Origin: a virus
Lineage: Duplodnaviria; Heunggongvirae; Uroviricota; Caudoviricetes
DNA: 5,791 bases
Reading direction: 5' to 3' (one strand)
Virus record (IMG/VR): IMGVR_UViG_3300013903_000037
Below are positions 1 to 5,791 of the stretch, one piece after another (position 1 is the first letter of the stretch; each line of letters begins with the position of its first letter). Under the pieces are notes generated by a model. The model made no database searches. It was not told the origin of the DNA and worked only from the letters and a program-made list of their open reading frames with translations. The position numbers were made by a program, and so were the translations under genes.

Positions 1-13
1 AACTCTGTTATTC

Positions 14-134
14 TCTGTAGTCGTGTAATTACTCGAAGAGAGAGCGGCTAAAGCTCAATTACACTCTGCTTTCCTCGTGTAATTTCACTAAGCCTCAATA
101 CAATTCCACTTCCTACTTCTGTAGTCGTGTAATT
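14..134. repeat. Iteron-like repeat array: exact 17-bp direct repeat TCTGTAGTCGTGTAATT at 14-30 and 118-134; third copy of the 10-bp core TCGTGTAATT at 75-84; inverted copy of the 8-bp core (AATTACAC) at 57-64
   Basis: Read directly from the sequence. Direct copies are spaced about 50-54 bp apart in a stretch with no ORF on either strand. Function (origin iterons or operator array) is inference. Confidence 0.7.
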
Positions 135-180
135 GTTTTCGGTGGAAAAGCCAGAGGCGACACCGAAAGAGAATTCTGAT

Positions 181-250
181 CTTATTAATCTTATCTATCT
201 TAGTTAATCTTCTTACTTTATCTTACTTACTTTATCTACTTTATTGTTAA
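181..250. repeat. AT-rich, pyrimidine-rich low-complexity tract with 10-bp periodic tandem units (TCTTACTTTA at 211-220, TCTTACTTAC at 221-230, then TTTATCTACT)
   Basis: Read directly. Strong strand asymmetry (T/C on + strand) and no ORF. Possible DNA-unwinding or bending element next to the iteron array. Confidence 0.55.
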
Positions 251-280
251 TAATAGCTTTATAAGCTCTGTGTAGCTCTC

Positions 281-338
281 TGACGCAAGAAACCGCATTC
301 AGAAAGGGAATCACCTTAGAAAAGTGTTCTTTGCGTCA
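281..338. promoter_or_regulatory. Imperfect inverted repeat TGACGCAAGA (281-290) / TCTTTGCGTCA (328-338), arms about 37 bp apart
   Basis: Read directly. Lies upstream of the first gene. Could be paired half-sites for a DNA-binding protein or a long-range stem. Function unknown. Confidence 0.35.
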
Positions 339-463
339 TAATGTGTTTTATGAAGGATTCAGAGGTGTTTCATAACAGAAATGTATTGAGGCATATTTTT
401 CTAAGCATTACCCAAATATATACGATGACTTTGATATTCCCTTTTAAAAAGTAAGGAGGACTA

Positions 464-742
464 TTGATACAGTATTTAATAAAAAGCAAAGTAGACAGAA
501 TTCAGTGTAATGACACAGGAAAACGCATCTACGAGACACTTGCTTACCTCTATAAAGGAAAGCCAACACCGCTAAAATATAGCGATGTGTTACATCGAGC
601 AGGGTGCTCTGAAGCTGGTTTAAAATTCTGGCTGAAACAGCTATCAAACTTCGGTGTTATAGAGATTAAAGAATTATCTTTCTCTACATTCAATCTCAAA
701 AGACTTTCTAAAGAAATAGAATTCATCTATTCCACTCTCTAA
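464..742 (+). CDS. Small (92 aa) putative winged-helix/HTH DNA-binding protein, TTG start
   Basis: ORF track 464..742. Strong Shine-Dalgarno AAGGAGGA at 453-460, though spacing to the TTG at 464 is short (3-4 nt). No in-frame ATG or GTG exists near the 5' end, so TTG is the only canonical start. The central segment (KYSDVLHRAGCSEAGLKFWLKQLSNFGVIE) has the look of a helix-turn-helix with a wing. Sits next to the repeat array. Confidence 0.5.
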   Translation: MIQYLIKSKVDRIQCNDTGKRIYETLAYLYKGKPTPLKYSDVLHRAGCSEAGLKFWLKQLSNFGVIEIKELSFSTFNLKRLSKEIEFIYSTL

Positions 743-783
743 AATCTCTCTATGTAATTAAAATATAAAAGGAAAACATTATT

Positions 784-900
784 ATGATAGTAGCTATGTA
801 TTGGTTATTGTTCTTTCTCACGTTAGAAGCATATTTCGGGGTGTTTTCCTTTAAAAGAAAAGGAAAAATAAATGGCAAAAAGAAAAAACAACGTTGTTAA
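784..900 (+). CDS. Candidate 38-aa small membrane peptide (MIVAMYWLLFFLTLEAYFGVFSFKRKGKINGKKKKQRC): hydrophobic N-terminal segment plus polybasic tail
   Basis: Hand translation; not in the ORF track because it is short. ATG at 784 preceded by AAAGGA (769-774) at about 9 nt spacing. Overlaps the start of the 872..1282 gene in another frame, so it could also be a chance ORF. Confidence 0.25.
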   Translation: MIVAMYWLLFFLTLEAYFGVFSFKRKGKINGKKKKQRC

Positions 901-1282
901 GAAAATCGGTGATTCAGCTTCTCTTCTAAGTAAACCTAAATCTATTCTAAGACGTAAAGACTTTAAAGAGCTAGTTACGCTCACCAAGCAAAATAGCGCC
1001 CCTGGCGAATGGAAAACAGAGATCATAGAACATTCTCCCTCTGTGCCTTGTGGAGATGAATATATCGCATTACAAGAAATCTTATCTTCAACACCTGGCG
1101 TGTTCTGGAAACCTAAAAAAAGAAAAGAGTATATCGTTGATAGCTCTGATTTACGCAAATACCAGATTTTAGGATTTGAAGACTATAACCACTACGTCGG
1201 TTATCTCGCCACAAATGGCCTAAATAATTTAGTTCCTGAATTCCAAATTTTAGATAATGCTGATCACTATGGAGACTTTTAA
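872..1282 (+). CDS. Hypothetical protein, 136 aa, strongly basic N-terminus (MAKRKNNVVKK...RRKDFK), possibly nucleic-acid binding
   Basis: ORF track. ATG at 872 preceded by a purine-rich AAGGAA (860-865). Stop TAA at 1280-1282 lies one base before the next gene's ATG. Same strand as all other supported genes. Confidence 0.6.
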   Translation: MAKRKNNVVKKIGDSASLLSKPKSILRRKDFKELVTLTKQNSAPGEWKTEIIEHSPSVPCGDEYIALQEILSSTPGVFWKPKKRKEYIVDSSDLRKYQILGFEDYNHYVGYLATNGLNNLVPEFQILDNADHYGDF

Positions 1283-1283
1283 T

Positions 1284-1622
1284 ATGAACAAAAACACATA
1301 TGACACAATTTACTCACTAATTAATTATTATGAGGATGATTACCTCCTGCCTTTAAACCGCGCTGAACTTGAAGCATACAAAGAAAACACGCCAGCGGCA
1401 CTAAATGAGGCGTTTAAACACTGGGATTTAGCTGTGAATGCCTTTGAGCACCTCTCTAAGCGTGTAGAGATGCTCTGTAAGCGTGAAAACGCATACCTGA
1501 CAGCCGATCAGATATGGGAGCTATCAAACTGGATAGAAGATATTGAATCTGATGTTCGCTATGTAGGAGATGGACTTGTTGAACTAGCTCAACGCTTAGG
1601 CGCTACTATCACAGAAGAATAA
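1284..1622 (+). CDS. Hypothetical acidic protein, 112 aa (track ORF 1257..1622 trimmed to the ATG with the best ribosome-binding site)
   Basis: GGAGA at 1271-1275, 8 nt upstream of ATG 1284. The earlier in-frame ATGs at 1257 and 1269 lack a ribosome-binding site and overlap the previous gene. By residue counting the protein has a clear excess of Asp/Glu over Lys/Arg, and its composition suggests mostly helix. Stop TAA at 1620-1622. Confidence 0.6.
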   Translation: MNKNTYDTIYSLINYYEDDYLLPLNRAELEAYKENTPAALNEAFKHWDLAVNAFEHLSKRVEMLCKRENAYLTADQIWELSNWIEDIESDVRYVGDGLVELAQRLGATITEE

Positions 1623-1651
1623 AAAAAGCAACAAAAAAGTTGTAAAATATC

Positions 1652-1680
1652 TTGACATTTCATCTATTGTATGTTAATAT
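1652..1680 (+). promoter_or_regulatory. Near-consensus sigma70-type promoter: -35 TTGACA (1652-1657), 17-bp spacer, extended -10 TGtTAATAT (1672-1680), A/T-rich UP-like tract upstream (1621-1650)
   Basis: Read directly. Predicted transcription start around 1687-1689. Confidence 0.65.
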
Positions 1681-1686
1681 AATTAT

Positions 1687-1910
1687 ATGGGGGTGATTAT
1701 TTTTCCTTTATTGGTTCGATATTAAAAATTCTTCCTGTCATTAAAGGGGAGTAAAATCTCCGCTCCCCGCTTCTCCTCCTTAAGTAAATACTGTGTCATT
1801 ATTACCTCTTTTTTCCTTTGTTATGCATACATCTTGGAGTATGCATAACATAGGGTAATTACATAGGTATGAGTTAATAAAAGGCGGCTTTAAATGCTGC
1901 CTTTTATTTT
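1687..1910 (+). ncRNA. Putative structured non-coding transcript or leader of about 220 nt, running from the predicted start of the 1652-1680 promoter to the intrinsic terminator at 1879-1910
   Basis: No plausible ORF with a ribosome-binding site in this interval. Contains hairpin GGGGAG(1746-1751)/CTCCCC(1763-1768), a single-stranded CU-rich anti-Shine-Dalgarno-like stretch TCCTCCTTA (1774-1782), a perfect 10-bp inverted repeat TTATGCATAC(1821-1830)/GTATGCATAA(1839-1848), and the terminator hairpin. Existence of a discrete RNA is inference. Confidence 0.3.
1879..1910 (+). terminator. Intrinsic (rho-independent) terminator: stem AAAAGGCGGC / GCTGCCTTTT with 7-nt loop, followed by TTTTATTTT
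   Basis: Read directly: 6 G/C-rich pairs including one G-U, extended by A-U pairs, then a T-run. Moderate predicted strength, so it may act as a partial or regulated terminator. Confidence 0.55.
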
Positions 1911-1972
1911 GCCCGTTATGCAACTTAAAAGTTGTATTTCTTACTTTAAACAAGGTAACAAGGTTTATATAA

Positions 1973-2185
1973 ATGTTGTTCTTAAATGATAAAGAGCAAA
2001 TCATCAAGTATAAAGATGAAATGCTGAAAATTAATCCACAAATTACCGAAATGGTAGCTAAATACGCTGGGTGTTCTGTCGAGGAAGTAGAAAGATGTGT
2101 TGAAAAATATTTTTCTCCTTCTTCTCCGTCTACACCTTCCCTTAATGAATTAATCAAATTAAAAGCTAAGGAGATTACTAAATGA
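1973..2185 (+). CDS. Hypothetical protein, 70 aa
   Basis: ORF track. Weak ribosome-binding site (AAGG at about 1961-1964). Stop TGA (2183-2185) overlaps the ATG (2182-2184) of the next gene, which suggests translational coupling. Start codon uncertain; internal ATGs exist. Confidence 0.45.
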   Translation: MLFLNDKEQIIKYKDEMLKINPQITEMVAKYAGCSVEEVERCVEKYFSPSSPSTPSLNELIKLKAKEITK

Positions 2186-2550
2186 TTATTGATTTAGACA
2201 CTCTGTTTCCAGGTCGAAATCGAAAGACTTTCACAGATATTGTAAGTTATTGTACTGATCCGTTTGCCTCTGTAGAAAGCAAGGTTTTTGCTTCTCTTCC
2301 TGCTGATGTTGAGTGCGGCGACTTGATCACCAGCACTGGCGCTAAATATGAATCAGGAGATGATATCTATGTTGTTATGAGTGAATTTGTAACGGCTGGA
2401 GAAAACAAGCCTGTAGATGTGCTACGTAGCAATGCTGGGCTTGTATGCATCAAAGCTGATGCCCTGAATGCTGTAAGTGAAGCAGCAAAAACAGCATTAA
2501 TTAAAAAAGGCTTTCAGCTTGAAGGCTTTAATACGGTTTTCACTTCTTAA
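2182..2550 (+). CDS. Hypothetical protein, 122 aa, immediately upstream of the major capsid gene (positional candidate for a scaffolding, decoration or other head-associated protein)
   Basis: ORF track. Good ribosome-binding site TAAGGAG (2167-2173), 8 nt before ATG 2182. Function is assigned from position only. Confidence 0.6.
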   Translation: MIIDLDTLFPGRNRKTFTDIVSYCTDPFASVESKVFASLPADVECGDLITSTGAKYESGDDIYVVMSEFVTAGENKPVDVLRSNAGLVCIKADALNAVSEAAKTALIKKGFQLEGFNTVFTS

Positions 2551-2568
2551 TAAAAGGAATAATAATAA

Positions 2569-3597
2569 ATGATTCTAGGTAATGATTACGTTGATTTAGC
2601 TCCTTTGTTCTCTGCGCATAGCACTAGAAACTATCTACTGTCTACCCTTGACTTCACTGATCCGGTGGGCGTTAGTTCTCATAAAGTAGCTGTTTCCCAG
2701 CTTGTCGAAAGCAACGAATCTCTCTTTAACAAAGAGACAAGCCGTTTTAGTTCTGAACACAATGTTACTAAGCGTGAACAAGGTAAAGAATGGCTTATCG
2801 AAATCCCGTATTTTCTTCGTGAAGATGTGATCCGTCCTTCTGATGTTCAAGGCAAACGTAAGTCTGGCACTGATTTTCAGGAAACACTCACTGATATTTA
2901 TGCGGAATATATCGCTAAACACCACGTAGCGTATCAGCGCACTAAAGAGAGCGTGCTGGCGGCTTCTTTGTTCTCTGGCAAAACTTACACGCCTAAAACT
3001 GATGATGTGTTAATTGAGTGGAGCAAGCTGTTTAACGTATCACCAATGAAAACCACGGTGAACGCTTCCAGCACGGACACCACGAAGATTTTTAAAGAAT
3101 TTGATCAGATTGCTACTAACATTTTTGAAATCACACAAAGCCAGGCGTCAGCGGTAGAAAGAATTGTTGTTTTCTGTAAACCTGACGCCTTCTCTGCAAT
3201 TCGATTCTCTGCTGGTATGGCAAACGCATTCCAGTATGTAAGCCCACTGGAAGAGGGGAACGTTGTGTATCAGCGTCGTGACCTGCTGCCAGGAGTGACA
3301 GCGTTCACTATTCCAGGAACTAACATCGATGTTGTTAAACTGGTAGATCCGCTACATCTGGCACATATGACCGCAGACGCTGTAGCGGTTCCGAAGTTTG
3401 CTAAAGGCTCTAACGTATATCAGAACATCTACGGGGCTGCTTCCAGCACCTTTGAACTGATTAATGCCGCTCCTGCTGAGGTGTATAGCTATAGCTATGA
3501 ATCTTCTCGTGGTGATGCTGTTAACGTTGTTACAGAGAATAGCCAGATGGTTGTAAACCACGGCGTTGGCTTCTCCGTTCAAATCACTGTTAAATAA
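2569..3597 (+). CDS. Major capsid protein, 342 aa, HK97-fold, apparently of the T7 gp10-like family
   Basis: ORF track. Ribosome-binding site AAAGGA (2553-2558). Recognition is from memory of T7 gp10A (345 aa), not a search: window VVFCKPDAFSAIRF (residues about 200-213) against remembered T7 VFYCDPDSYSAIL (about 206-218); window IEIPYFLREDVIRPSDV against T7 ITIDGLLTADVLIYDIE; similar length and C-terminal character. Followed by a strong terminator, as is typical of highly expressed capsid genes. Confidence 0.7.
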   Translation: MILGNDYVDLAPLFSAHSTRNYLLSTLDFTDPVGVSSHKVAVSQLVESNESLFNKETSRFSSEHNVTKREQGKEWLIEIPYFLREDVIRPSDVQGKRKSGTDFQETLTDIYAEYIAKHHVAYQRTKESVLAASLFSGKTYTPKTDDVLIEWSKLFNVSPMKTTVNASSTDTTKIFKEFDQIATNIFEITQSQASAVERIVVFCKPDAFSAIRFSAGMANAFQYVSPLEEGNVVYQRRDLLPGVTAFTIPGTNIDVVKLVDPLHLAHMTADAVAVPKFAKGSNVYQNIYGAASSTFELINAAPAEVYSYSYESSRGDAVNVVTENSQMVVNHGVGFSVQITVK

Positions 3598-3616
3598 TAT
3601 TTTTAACGTGTAATAG

Positions 3617-3652
3617 AGGCGTGGCGTGTATTCACGCTTCGCCTTTTTTTTT
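3617..3652 (+). terminator. Strong intrinsic terminator: stem AGGCGTGGCGTG / CACGCTTCGCCT (two G/C-rich helices around a small internal loop), loop TATT, followed by a run of 9 T
   Basis: Read directly. Located 20 nt after the capsid stop codon. Confidence 0.75.
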
Positions 3653-3686
3653 ATTTATTTTTTAAATTTTGAGAGGTGATTAAAAT

Positions 3687-3887
3687 ATGGAAGTGATTTT
3701 GAAATCAAAAAATGGTGTACACGTACATTTAGATGCTAATGATTCTAGAGGCTTGTTAAATCTGAAATATCTCTGTTCTCTCCTAGATGTTCCATATGAA
3801 GGAGTAAAAGCCCGTATGTTCAGATTAAACGAGAGTATTGATCAAGCTCTACACCATTTCTTAAGCAAAGAAGGTGGTAAAAAATGA
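3687..3887 (+). CDS. Hypothetical protein, 66 aa
   Basis: ORF track. Ribosome-binding site GAGGTGA (3673-3679), 7 nt before ATG 3687. Stop TGA at 3885-3887, 19 nt before the next gene. Confidence 0.55.
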   Translation: MEVILKSKNGVHVHLDANDSRGLLNLKYLCSLLDVPYEGVKARMFRLNESIDQALHHFLSKEGGKK

Positions 3888-3906
3888 TTAATAAGGGGGA
3901 TTTTAA

Positions 3907-5791
3907 ATGTTAGAAATTAACACTTCTAAAATTAAGAACACAGTTACATTTAGTGTAGATAAAGACAGCTTGAAAAAAGCGAAAGACTCTATTACAGGCT
4001 TAAAGGAATTCGCAGAAAATATCAAGCCAGCTAAATTAAGATTTGATATTGTCACTAAAGGCTATAAGAAAGCACAAAGTGAAGTAGACAAGATTGCTCA
4101 ACAGAAAGCTAAAACAGAAAAGCAGAATCAAAGAGCACAAGCTGCCGCAGCAAGAGCACAGGCAAGGCAACAGGCACAAATAGCAGCACGCAAGGAGAAA
4201 GCAGACTTAAAACTGTTAGACGTTGGATCAAGCATTAGTGCAATGCACCGTCTCTCTGTAGCGGAACAATACAAAGCTATTGCACAGGCTAGAGAAATTG
4301 CCCTCCAATATGAAAGAGGCGCTATTAGTCTGGCACGTATGAATAGCCAGATGAAACGCCTACAACAGCAACAACGTAAGATTAATGGCAACAGAAAAGC
4401 TCAATTAGCCCCCGTTAAGGGAGGAGGATCAGGGAATGCCGCCACTATGGGCGCTCTGTTATTTGGAGGCGCTACGGCTGCTGCTGGCGTGATGGCTGTT
4501 AGTAAAGCGTCGGAGTTTGTTAGTAGCAGTTTCGCTAACGCAGACACCCAAGGGGAGCTAATCCAACGTGCAAAGCTGGGTGGTGTAGACGTTAACCAGA
4601 TGTATAATATTACAGAATGGGCGTATAAAAACGGCGTTGACTCTATGATGGGTGATCAAGGGGCTAGAAAATACCTAGATCAGATGAAAGATGTTAGGGA
4701 ACGTGCCGCAAAATCCTATAGTGAAGCTGAATTGGTGAAAGACAAGAAAACCGGAAAATCAGGGAAATGGAAAGGCGGTGATAACGCTATTAATGAACTT
4801 CTAAACATCGGAGTTATTAACAAAAGCGACCTTAAAAAATTTGCTGATAATCCAGCCGGATTAATTTCTAAGGCTGTTAATGGAATGATGAAAAAAGGGT
4901 TTTCAGATTCTCAAATTGGACAACGTTTAGAAGACCTGGGCGATGATTTGATGCTTACATCAAAATATTGGCAACGTTCCGTTAAAGATGTACAAGAAAG
5001 TATTAACCAGCAAAAAGCCTCTGGAAAATGGCTAACAGAAACACAGCAAGACTCTATTGTTAAATTCAGAGAACTAAACAGACAGCTTTCACAGCTTTCT
5101 GATGCAAGACAAGTAGCATTCGTAGACGGCTTTATGAAATCTCTTGATCCAAAAGTAACGGAAGAGTTTTTGAAAAACCTTTCTAATCTCACTCCGTATT
5201 TTACGAAGCTGGGAGAAGCTACAGGAAGTCTCTTTGAGGCCATTATGAAGATTGTAAACTGGTTTAATCGTAATGATGATAAGACAGATGCTATTCAGAA
5301 AAATTTAGGTGATGCACCGCCATTAAGCAATGACGGAATGAAACAGAATCTTTCTAATCTCGTTCCTGATAAATATAAAGGCGCTGGCACTGCAACAACT
5401 ACACCTGATAATAGTCATTCTCTCTTTAACACGATTAAGGGATTGCTTTTCGATGATAATTCTTCTGTGTCAGATGTAAAAATGTCAGTCAGCGAAGCAC
5501 CGATAACCAATCTCAAACAGGGTGCTTTAAATAATCTTGCAATGACAACTCCGGCTTATAATTTATCTCCTGTGTTTAATCTGAATCCTACATTTGAAGT
5601 GGTAACAGAGGTTCCTCTTACTATTAATTCTGACACATCAAGATTAAGCGATTATGTGGATTTTACAGCGAGAGCAAGTCGGGATAGCTTCTTGAAATCA
5701 TTAACATTAACCAGCTTATCAGGACACGAAGATTATCAGGAAATAAAAGGCGTAAGATATCATCAGACAGATAAAGAACTTGTGCAGAAAG
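3907..5791 (+). CDS. Large virion-type protein, 3'-partial (at least 628 codons, no stop before the window end): N-terminal Q/A/R/K-rich predicted coiled-coil, Gly/Ala-rich hydrophobic glycine-zipper-like segment (residues about 172-199, nt 4420-4503), then a mixed Ser/Asn/Thr-rich region. Candidate internal core, ejection or tape-measure-like protein.
   Basis: Hand translation of frame 1 from ATG 3907 gives an uninterrupted reading frame to the end of the window. Absent from the ORF track, presumably because it has no stop inside the window. Ribosome-binding site AAGGGGGA (3893-3900), 6 nt before the ATG. Composition is typical of phage tape-measure or internal virion proteins. Confidence 0.7.
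   Translation, partial: MLEINTSKIKNTVTFSVDKDSLKKAKDSITGLKEFAENIKPAKLRFDIVTKGYKKAQSEVDKIAQQKAKTEKQNQRAQAAAARAQARQQAQIAARKEKADLKLLDVGSSISAMHRLSVAEQYKAIAQAREIALQYERGAISLARMNSQMKRLQQQQRKINGNRKAQLAPVKGGGSGNAATMGALLFGGATAAAGVMAVSKASEFVSSSFANADTQGELIQRAKLGGVDVNQMYNITEWAYKNGVDSMMGDQGARKYLDQMKDVRERAAKSYSEAELVKDKKTGKSGKWKGGDNAINELLNIGVINKSDLKKFADNPAGLISKAVNGMMKKGFSDSQIGQRLEDLGDDLMLTSKYWQRSVKDVQESINQQKASGKWLTETQQDSIVKFRELNRQLSQLSDARQVAFVDGFMKSLDPKVTEEFLKNLSNLTPYFTKLGEATGSLFEAIMKIVNWFNRNDDKTDAIQKNLGDAPPLSNDGMKQNLSNLVPDKYKGAGTATTTPDNSHSLFNTIKGLLFDDNSSVSDVKMSVSEAPITNLKQGALNNLAMTTPAYNLSPVFNLNPTFEVVTEVPLTINSDTSRLSDYVDFTARASRDSFLKSLTLTSLSGHEDYQEIKGVRYHQTDKELVQK

What the first reader, a model, noticed from the sequence alone, without database searches (positions are those of the whole stretch)
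14..134. Iteron-like array with three direct and one inverted copy of a GTGTAATT core
An exact 17-bp repeat (TCTGTAGTCGTGTAATT) occurs twice, 104 bp apart. The 10-bp core recurs between them at about 50-54 bp spacing, which is roughly five helical turns and puts the sites on one face of the helix. An inverted copy of the 8-bp core lies at 57-64. The region is non-coding and sits upstream of a small winged-helix-like protein gene. This fits a replication origin with iterons, or an operator array or partition site for a phage or plasmid DNA-binding protein.
Basis: partly seen in the sequence, partly recalled or inferred. Interest (0 to 1): 0.55.

Follow-up and report, generated by a model that had tools for sequence, protein, structure and literature searches.

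The report
Protein-site cluster beside a satellite origin
The repeats are real and far from chance, but they are not the replication iterons: they are one cluster of a short protein-binding motif that flanks the true iteron origin, just outside the window, of a 12.5-kb phage-satellite-like island in E. coli.

Summary
GTGTAATT occurs four times, all within bases 23-134, against 0.25 expected. The 17-mer is exact at 14 and 118.

The window is part of a 12.5-kb island inserted at tRNA-Thr (thrW) in about 600 E. coli genomes. The island's real origin lies 331-437 bp upstream of window base 1. It consists of 4-5 tandem 22-bp iterons followed by a 19 % GC stretch. Iteron sequence changes together with the HTH_36 initiator-like protein.

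The GTGTAATT array does not change with them. Islands with other iterons, another initiator or another integrase keep the same array. The extended motif TCGTGTAAT has five exact copies in 31 kb. All five lie within 1.1 kb around the iterons, and all point away from them.

The spacing is not conserved: 50-51 bp usually, 70 bp in one island, and one island has collapsed to a single copy. The motif is not enriched in the likely helper lineage (Justusliebigvirus) or in T5.

The best reading is a cluster of accessory or regulatory binding sites for an island-specific factor. The downstream 92-aa winged-helix protein is the leading candidate. That gene is adjacent to the array only because this variant has lost 1.56 kb, including the early promoter and the initiator gene.

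The parts
14..30 (+). Copy 1: the 17-mer TCTGTAGTCGTGTAATT (core GTGTAATT at 23-30). It is embedded in the 16-bp near-palindrome TCGTGTAATTACTCGA at 21-36.
   Evidence: The palindromic partner TCGAGTAAT on the - strand appears (L003 12028-12036).
57..64 (-). Inverted copy of the 8-bp core (AATTACAC on the + strand). With copy 2 it forms AATTACAC-N12-GTGTAATT.
   Evidence: (I20, I21).
68..84 (+). Copy 2: GCTTTCCTCGTGTAATT, 76 % identical to the 17-mer, with the 10-bp core TCGTGTAATT at 75-84.
118..134 (+). Copy 3: an exact second copy of the 17-mer. In island L148 its homology with the left flank of copy 1 extends to about 41 bp.
137..168 (.). Inverted repeat TTTCGGTG ... CACCGAAA (8-bp arms, 16-nt spacer) immediately after copy 3. 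Other island subfamilies also have a hairpin after their GTGCAAT sites.
   Evidence: (I24).
179..244 (.). T/C-rich degenerate tandem repeats (periods 9, 14 and 23), about 29 % GC. This is the most indel-variable part of the region among relatives.
379..399 (.). Junction of a 1.56-kb deletion (L003 12398-13956 is missing). The deletion removed the main early promoter, the 62-aa and 56-aa genes and nearly all of the 230-aa HTH_36 initiator-like gene.
464..742 (+). The 92-aa winged-helix protein (p92), the leading island-encoded candidate for binding the motif.
   Evidence: It is identical in every island examined that carries this array, whatever the Rep or integrase.
753..759 (+). Extra TGTAATT copy in the p92-p136 intergenic region.
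1857..1863 (-). Extra TGTAATT copy (AATTACA on the + strand) in the 350-bp intergenic region ahead of the capsid genes.
3607..3614 (+). Extra CGTGTAAT copy just after the capsid gene stop codon and before a terminator-like hairpin.
   Evidence: L003 17184-17192.

Best explanation
The array is a cluster of four recognition sites for a sequence-specific DNA-binding protein. The core is GTGTAAT(T) and the extended form is TCGTGTAAT. It is the right-hand part of a two-sided set of at least eight sites that flank the true iteron origin of a 12.5-kb thrW-integrated, satellite-like island, and almost all sites point away from the iterons. I infer that the sites are accessory or regulatory: a factor other than the initiator binds them and organises or represses the 2-kb origin and early-control region. 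The factor is most likely the island's own 92-aa winged-helix protein, otherwise a host nucleoid or origin factor. What is shown: the repeats, their enrichment, their placement and orientation around the iterons, and their independence from the initiator, the RHH protein, the integrase and the resolvase. What is inferred: that a protein binds them, which protein it is, and what binding achieves. In this window's variant the initiator gene and early promoter are deleted, so the array here is probably an intact part of a disabled element.
For: Enrichment: there are 4 GTGTAATT copies against 0.25 expected. TCGTGTAA occurs 6 times in the 1.8-kb non-coding region against 0.05 expected, making it the top non-iteron word. 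TCGTGTAAT has 5 exact copies in 31 kb, all between L003 11025 and 12133.

Orientation: the two exact copies and other GTGYAAT copies left of the iterons are on the - strand, and those on the right are on the + strand. The same pattern holds in five loci, including modules that are not homologous to this one and use GTGCAAT.

Placement: all further TGTAATT or CGTGTAAT copies in the window fall in intergenic DNA.

Independence from other proteins: the array is identical in islands whose iterons and Rep differ (L145 Rep 64 % identical, L147 59 %), whose RHH differs (46 % or absent), whose integrase differs (L148, 32 %, at another att site), or which lack the resolvase. Conversely, L022 has the L003-type Rep N-terminus (93 %) and iterons but lacks this array, and its p92 is only 24 % identical.

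Candidate binder: p92 has a winged-helix fold. The region has no ORF and no Rfam match. Folding z-scores are the same on both strands (-3.2), which points to inverted repeats at the DNA level rather than an RNA.
Against: No binding data exist. The link between array type and p92 type could be shared ancestry alone, since only two module types were seen. No promoter lies in the array. Spacing varies (70 bp in L148), and L009 keeps a single copy, so the full array is not needed for the island to persist in a chromosome. Close relatives are too similar for phylogenetic footprinting: the array is no more conserved than its flanks. The exact 17-mer may reflect gene conversion between copies 1 and 3 rather than selection on 17 bp.
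Confidence: 0.4

Rival explanations
1. The array is the iteron set of the replication origin: the initiator binds the repeats and melts adjacent DNA.
For: These are direct repeats in non-coding DNA of a replicating mobile element, with roughly five-turn spacing.
Against: A canonical iteron array (4.9 x 22 bp, 92 % matches) followed by a 19 % GC stretch lies 331-437 bp upstream of window base 1. Each subfamily has its own 22-23-bp iterons, and these track the HTH_36 protein. The GTGTAATT array stays the same when iterons and Rep change. The local GC-skew switch is at the iterons, not at the array.
Confidence: 0.04
2. The array is a packaging recognition site (pac, or cosB-like) through which a helper or island small terminase selects island DNA.
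For: The island has capsid and tail-length genes but no terminase or portal, so it must use a helper's packaging machinery. From my own recall, three sites in mixed orientation over about 120 bp resemble the R3-R2-R1 layout of lambda cosB.
Against: The motif is neither enriched nor clustered in the candidate helper lineage (PaulScherrer, 150 kb: 4 TCGTGTAA against 4.6 expected) or in T5 bases 1-50,000 (0 copies). Copies are spread over 1.1 kb on both sides of the origin. One natural island keeps a single copy.
Confidence: 0.1
3. The sites are polar signals for replication, either fork barriers or primosome and priming signals. They are placed symmetrically so that the same strand polarity faces forks leaving or returning to the origin.
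For: All five exact TCGTGTAAT copies, and most degenerate ones, point away from the iterons on both sides. The copy at L003 11864 (TCGTGTAACTA) matches 9 of 11 bases of the Ter core TGTTGTAACTA; the Ter sequence is from my own recall.
Against: The array copies carry three mismatches to the Ter core. One inverted copy breaks the polarity. The left-hand copies lie in a homologous block, so they are not independent across subfamilies. No candidate protein is known.
Confidence: 0.1
4. The sites nucleate a host nucleoid protein such as H-NS, which silences the island's control region.
For: TCGTGTAATT matches 9 of 10 positions of the published H-NS high-affinity motif tCG(t/a)T(a/t)AATT; the motif is from my own recall and was not checked here. 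A 29 % GC T-rich tract follows the array.
Against: Sister subfamilies use GTGCAAT, which fits H-NS poorly. Strict orientation is not expected for H-NS.
Confidence: 0.08
5. The array is a recombination by-product with no function of its own. Copies 1 and 3 arose by duplication and gene conversion, and the short core recurs by descent.
For: In L148 the homology between the flanks of copies 1 and 3 extends to about 41 bp. L009 has lost the 104 bp between them. A metagenome scaffold breaks inside the array.
Against: Duplication does not explain copy 2, the inverted copy, the exact copies 380-615 bp on the other side of the iterons, the intergenic copies elsewhere, or the GTGCAAT sites at the equivalent place in non-homologous modules.
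Confidence: 0.12
6. The array is a partition (centromere-like) site bound by the winged-helix protein.
For: Repeats lie near an origin, and TubR appears among the weak fold matches of p92.
Against: No ParA, ParM or TubZ-type NTPase was found among the island proteins scanned. The element integrates through a tyrosine integrase between 20-bp att repeats, so stable inheritance does not need partition.
Confidence: 0.05

Closest known systems
Accessory protein-binding sites that flank iteron origins (for example the DnaA and IHF sites at both ends of P1 oriR, R6K gamma ori and RK2 oriV; layouts from my own recall)
   Same: Short sites, distinct from the iterons, lie on both sides of an iteron plus AT-rich core and are not specific to the initiator.
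   Different: The motif is not a DnaA box: it matches only 5-7 of 9 positions of TTWTNCACA by my own comparison. It is not an IHF site either. The sites are further out (200-600 bp), and the binder is unknown.
The pSC101 par locus (cis-acting stability region next to an iteron origin, with two direct repeats flanking an inverted one; from my own recall)
   Same: A cluster of about 100-400 bp without genes beside an iteron origin, built of direct repeats plus an inverted copy. Natural or engineered loss of repeats is tolerated to a degree.
   Different: There is no sequence similarity. The gyrase binding described for par was not tested here. This element is integrative.
Dispersed asymmetric operators of a mobile-element regulator (for example the P1 C1 repressor sites or the KorB sites of RK2; from my own recall)
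   Same: An asymmetric 8-9-bp motif in either orientation, concentrated in one control region, with further single copies in intergenic DNA.
   Different: No promoter overlaps the array. The cognate regulator is only guessed to be p92.
Lambda cosB (R3-I1-R2-R1 small-terminase sites; from my own recall)
   Same: Three to four copies of a short element in mixed orientation over about 120 bp in a capsid-encoding element.
   Different: No adjacent terminase gene or cosN-like site is present. The motif is absent from the candidate helper genomes examined.

Membership tests
Iteron array of a theta-type origin | Tandem or regularly spaced direct repeats of about 17-24 bp | tested here: not met
   The array units share only 8-10 bp (17 bp for two of them) and are 50-54 bp apart. 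By contrast, 4.9 tandem 22-bp units lie at L001 19564-19670, upstream of the window.
Iteron array of a theta-type origin | An AT-rich unwinding stretch next to the repeats | tested here: not met
   The 19 % GC stretch (L003 11650-11749) abuts the 22-bp iterons. It is about 270 bp from the array, which itself is 38-40 % GC.
Iteron array of a theta-type origin | Repeat sequence co-varies with the cognate initiator | tested here: not met
   The array is identical in L144 (Rep 100 %), L145 (64 %) and L147 (59 %), which carry three different iteron types. The 22-23-bp iterons do track the Rep N-terminus.
Iteron array of a theta-type origin | Initiator binds the repeats | not testable with these tools
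   This needs EMSA or footprinting.
Partition site (parS, parC, tubC) | A partition NTPase and a centromere-binding protein are encoded alongside | tested here: not met
   Pfam, PHROG and NCBIfam scans of island proteins found no ParA, ParM or TubZ.
Operator array of a transcription regulator | Sites overlap or adjoin a promoter | tested here: not met
   No sigma-70-like site lies in L003 12014-12134. The strong promoter is at 12759-12787, 625 bp downstream. Only a consensus scan was run.
Operator array of a transcription regulator | A cognate DNA-binding regulator is encoded in the element | tested here: inconclusive
   p92 is a predicted winged helix and always accompanies this array type, but there is no evidence on its specificity.
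cos or pac site | The same recognition sequence is present in the helper genome, or the site is adjacent to terminase genes | tested here: not met
   The island has no terminase gene. The motif is at chance level in PaulScherrer and absent from T5 bases 1-50,000. Only two phages were examined.
Integrase arm-type sites | Sites lie within a few hundred bp of the att core and are specific to the integrase | tested here: not met
   The att repeats are at L003 9064-9083 and 21571-21590; the array is 2.9 kb from attL. L148 has a 32 %-identical integrase at another site but the same array.
res site of a serine resolvase | The site adjoins the resolvase gene and is present with it | tested here: not met
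   The resolvase gene is 1.1 kb away in L003 and absent from L001, L144-L148 and other array-bearing islands.
DnaA boxes | Match to TTWTNCACA | tested here: not met
   The array copies read AATTACACG, which is 5 of 9 by direct comparison with the sequence. The consensus is as quoted in 10.1101/866236.

The most novel reading that the evidence does not exclude
The motif set is an origin-centred, outward-pointing polar array belonging to an apparently undescribed family of E. coli phage satellites. These satellites carry their own capsid and tail-length genes and appear to parasitise virulent Stephanstirmvirinae myoviruses. In this reading the sites are where a satellite-specific factor controls fork direction, replication mode or the hand-over of replicated DNA to packaging. 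That would be a cis-element class with no described counterpart in PICI, P4-like or PLE satellites.
Probability: 0.12. Interest if true: 0.65.

Novelty: new member of a known kind. Interest (0 to 1): 0.4.

Why it matters
The array alone is an ordinary kind of feature: short protein-binding repeats in the control region of a mobile element. Its main value is as a handle on the element around it.

The host island is found in roughly one in nine complete E. coli genomes. It has a modular iteron origin and encodes a capsid protein, a tape-measure protein and a tail-tube initiator. The tail-tube initiator is 60 % identical to that of Justusliebigvirus phages. The island has no portal or terminase. 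I found no description of it in the searchable literature.

If the motif's binder is identified, it would give an entry point to how this island is kept silent and how it is switched on. The analysis also corrects the origin assignment, which matters for anyone building a mini-replicon from this element.

Tried and rejected
- **Rfam:** a permissive scan of the whole island found only the tRNA.
- **Promoter and terminator scan:** nothing lies in the array.
- **RNA folding:** z-scores are equal on both strands, so I dropped an RNA reading.
- **BLAST of the 2-kb non-coding region against phages and plasmids:** nothing matched the array. A 28-31-nt match to T5-like terminal-repeat DNA lies elsewhere in the region, in the part deleted from this window.
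- **T5 as source of the motif:** T5 bases 1-50,000 contain no TCGTGTAA.
- **PaulScherrer (Justusliebigvirus) as source of the motif:** counts are at chance and there is no cluster.
- **IMG/VR scan for two spaced motif copies:** 115 hits, essentially chance plus the known E. coli islands, so uninformative.
- **IMG/VR scan for the window's 3' junction:** no hit.
- **Genome-contig scan with the capsid protein:** only one locus returned, because a single query finds only close relatives.
- **Sequence searches of p92 and p136 against PDB, and of the small proteins against NCBIfam:** nothing significant.
- **The 62-aa conserved first-gene product:** AF2 gives a three-helix bundle with no informative fold match, so there is no evidence that it binds DNA.
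- **Literature searches:** searches on the motif, on satellites at thrW and on Stephanstirmvirinae satellites found nothing relevant.
- **Considered and rejected by direct comparison:** DnaA boxes, IHF sites, integrase arm sites and a resolvase res site.
- **Phylogenetic footprinting:** failed because close relatives are 93-99 % identical across the whole region.

Full report
**1. The observation**

TCTGTAGTCGTGTAATT is exact at 14-30 and 118-134. The 10-bp core TCGTGTAATT recurs at 75-84, and an inverted GTGTAATT lies at 57-64. GTGTAATT has four copies in the 5791-base window, all within 23-134. The expectation is 0.25, and no shuffle out of 200 reaches four. No ORF of 25 aa or more crosses the array. 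Copy 1 is embedded in a 16-bp near-palindrome, TCGTGTAATTACTCGA.

**2. Where the window comes from**

The window matches a chromosomal segment in 624 of 5426 complete E. coli genomes, with identity up to 100 % over bases 1-5726. In full-length copies it is part of a 12.5-kb island bounded by a 20-bp direct repeat (ACTCCTATTATCGGCACCAT). One repeat copy is the 3' end of tRNA-Thr thrW.

The gene order in the island is:
- variable cargo, in some islands a serine resolvase;
- about 2 kb of non-coding DNA;
- a near-consensus sigma-70 promoter;
- genes for a 62-aa protein, a 56-aa RHH-like protein (my reading of its sequence; no family matched), a 185-244-aa HTH_36 protein and the 92-aa protein (p92);
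- genes for 136-aa, 121-aa, 70-aa and 122-aa proteins;
- a gpE-type major capsid protein (PF03864) and a 66-aa protein;
- a 611-aa tape-measure-like protein and a 237-aa Dit-like protein;
- a tyrosine integrase on the opposite strand.

This window's variant has lost L003 12398-13956, with the junction at window 379-399. The deletion removed the promoter, the first two genes and nearly all of the HTH_36 gene. The array therefore sits just upstream of the 92-aa gene only as a product of that deletion. In intact islands the array ends 625 bp before the promoter and 767 bp before the first gene.

**3. The real origin**

Tandem Repeats Finder reports 4.9 copies of a 22-bp unit (GGTAGGTCACTGTGAACTAGGG, 92 % matches) at 331-437 bp upstream of window base 1. 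A 19 % GC stretch follows, then a 55-57 % GC stretch, and the local GC skew changes sign at that point.

Diverged members of the island family have different 22-23-bp iterons, or spaced palindromes, at the same position. They also have different HTH_36 proteins. L022 shares the L003-type HTH_36 N-terminal half (93 %) and has the L003-type iterons. This is the behaviour expected of an initiator and its iterons.

**4. The array is not tied to the initiator**

Looking up the exact p92 sequence returned islands with three other origin types. L145 has CCTACCTAGGAAATGAGTT-type iterons and a Rep 64 % identical. L147 has ACAGAAnnCTGTTA-type iterons and a Rep 59 % identical. L148 has two iteron sets, and a 32 %-identical integrase at a different insertion site next to actS and xdh, where L005 is annotated with a tRNA-Gly. 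All three keep the same GTGTAATT array. The RHH protein also varies (46 % or absent), and the resolvase is usually absent.

That excludes the initiator, the RHH protein, the integrase and the resolvase as array-specific partners. The proteins that always accompany this array type are p92 and the downstream p136, p121 and p70 module, together with the well-conserved 62-aa protein.

p92 is predicted with confidence to be a winged helix: pLDDT is 91, and the best Foldseek matches are CodY C-terminal domain, ArsR, MarR and TubR, all at weak E-values. The 62-aa protein is a three-helix bundle with no informative match.

**5. The array is part of a larger, oriented motif set**

TCGTGTAA is the most over-represented non-iteron word in the 1.8-kb non-coding region, with 6 copies against 0.05 expected. 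TCGTGTAAT has five exact copies in the 31-kb locus. Two lie on the - strand 380-555 bp left of the iterons, and three lie on the + strand in the array. One-mismatch copies lie at 11495 (-), 11864 (+) and 12028 (-). Almost all copies therefore point away from the iterons.

In four other island subfamilies the sequence to the right of the origin is not homologous to this one. It still contains one or two GTGCAAT sites on the + strand, followed by a hairpin. ATTRCAC copies lie on the left.

The remaining TGTAATT or CGTGTAAT copies in the window (753, 1857, 3607) are all intergenic.

**6. Structural variation**

Among 36 array-bearing loci:
- 33 have spacings of 54/50 or 54/51 bp;
- L148 has 54/70, because the left flank of copy 3 there duplicates about 41 bp of the left flank of copy 1;
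- Escherichia sp. E1V33 (L009) has lost the 104 bp between copies 1 and 3;
- one metagenome scaffold has a gap inside the array.

Most relatives carry T instead of C at window position 22. Copies 1 and 3 are therefore exchanging sequence, the exact 17-mer is not universal, and same-face phasing is not conserved. Close relatives are too similar overall for footprinting.

**7. Other readings that were tested**

There is no Rfam family and no promoter in the array. Folding z-scores are equal on both strands, which indicates DNA-level symmetry rather than an RNA. The cores match only 5 of 9 positions of the DnaA box consensus. The array is 2.9 kb from attL, so the sites are not integrase arm sites.

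The motif is absent from T5 bases 1-50,000 and at chance level in the 150-kb Justusliebigvirus PaulScherrer genome. It is therefore not copied from those phages, which weakens the packaging-mimic idea.

**8. What the island is**

The Dit-like protein is 60 % identical (E 2e-81) to the tail-tube initiator of PaulScherrer. The N-terminus of the tape-measure-like protein is 53 % identical to the phage's tape-measure protein. The capsid protein is a distant relative (21 %). DNA identity reaches 72-81 % in the tail genes. About 150 bp of the island's left non-coding region is collinear with a non-coding region of that phage.

With an integrase, its own origin, capsid and tail-length genes, and no portal or terminase, the island looks like a satellite of Stephanstirmvirinae myoviruses. 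I found no description of it in the searchable library.

**9. Verdict**

The iteron-origin reading is wrong in detail, because the iterons are next door and outside the window. It is right in spirit, because this is origin and control DNA of a phage-related element.

The best-supported mechanism is a cluster of accessory or regulatory binding sites for an island-specific factor, with p92 as the leading candidate. My confidence is 0.4. The rivals are a packaging site, polar replication signals, H-NS nucleation, a recombination relic, and a partition site.

The feature is a new member of a known kind. The surrounding island is the more interesting object.

Noticed in passing
L001 19564-19745 (331-437 bp upstream of window base 1); L003 11584-11749: This is the true iteron origin: 4-5 tandem 22-bp repeats followed by a 19 % GC stretch and then a GC-rich stretch. 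Other island subfamilies carry different 22-23-bp iterons at the same place, and these match their different HTH_36 proteins.
   Followed up: yes
window 379-399 (equivalent to L003 12398-13956, which is missing): This variant carries a 1.56-kb deletion between short similar sequences. It removes the early promoter, two small genes and the initiator-like gene, so this copy of the island is probably unable to replicate. The same deletion is present in several E. coli genomes and one metagenome scaffold.
   Followed up: yes
window 2182-5790 and L003 19355-20068, compared with phage MZ501100.1 6139-15739: The island's tape-measure-like and Dit-like proteins are close relatives of the Justusliebigvirus tape-measure and tail-tube initiator proteins: 60 % identity for the initiator, with DNA-level similarity. 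The capsid protein is a distant relative, and no portal or terminase is present. The island looks like an undescribed satellite of Stephanstirmvirinae phages that brings its own capsid and tail-length determinants.
   Followed up: partly
L003 12647-12677 (deleted from the window); L007 3001-3028: A 28-31-nt element (GTTAGAACGCGTTTTAGAGCGTTTTAG) lies about 100 bp upstream of the island's early promoter. It matches, at 93-97 %, the start of the large untranslated repeat region in the terminal repeat of T5-like phages, and it is conserved in diverged island subfamilies. It may be a shared regulatory site.
   Followed up: partly
L001 18581-18678 and 19096-19145, compared with MZ501100.1 94,775-95,008: Two blocks of the island's left non-coding region are collinear with a 1.6-kb non-coding region of phage PaulScherrer (72-76 % identity, E 1e-10 and 2e-5). 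One block is a TTGGCATTTCTAAACA...TTGCCAAATG element.
   Followed up: partly
window 5721-5791: The last 71 bases do not match the E. coli islands, whose similarity ends at 5726. They are 100 % identical to an unrelated 53-kb 'Bacteriophage sp.' scaffold from human faeces (MT835527.1 28662-28732), and the open reading frame continues through the junction. This is either an assembly chimera or a recombinant tape-measure C-terminus.
   Followed up: partly
window 1640-1960: The 350-bp intergenic region ahead of the capsid genes holds a near-consensus promoter (TTGACA, 17-nt spacer, TAATAT, near 1653-1681). It also holds a perfect 11-bp inverted repeat (GTTATGCATAC ... GTATGCATAAC, near 1821-1851) and a terminator-like hairpin near 1881-1907. 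It is probably the late control region.
   Followed up: no
L003 10940-11060: Two copies of GTATTCATTTGGT lie 56 bp apart, immediately upstream of the serine resolvase gene. They are probably its res or crossover site. At the same position L005 has a small tyrosine recombinase instead.
   Followed up: no
L001 1-15533: In strain CEA601S a P22-like prophage lies upstream of the island; thrW itself is outside the fetched stretch. The vat autotransporter island follows on the other side. If the prophage is at thrW, this is a tandem array of integrated elements at one tRNA gene.
   Followed up: no
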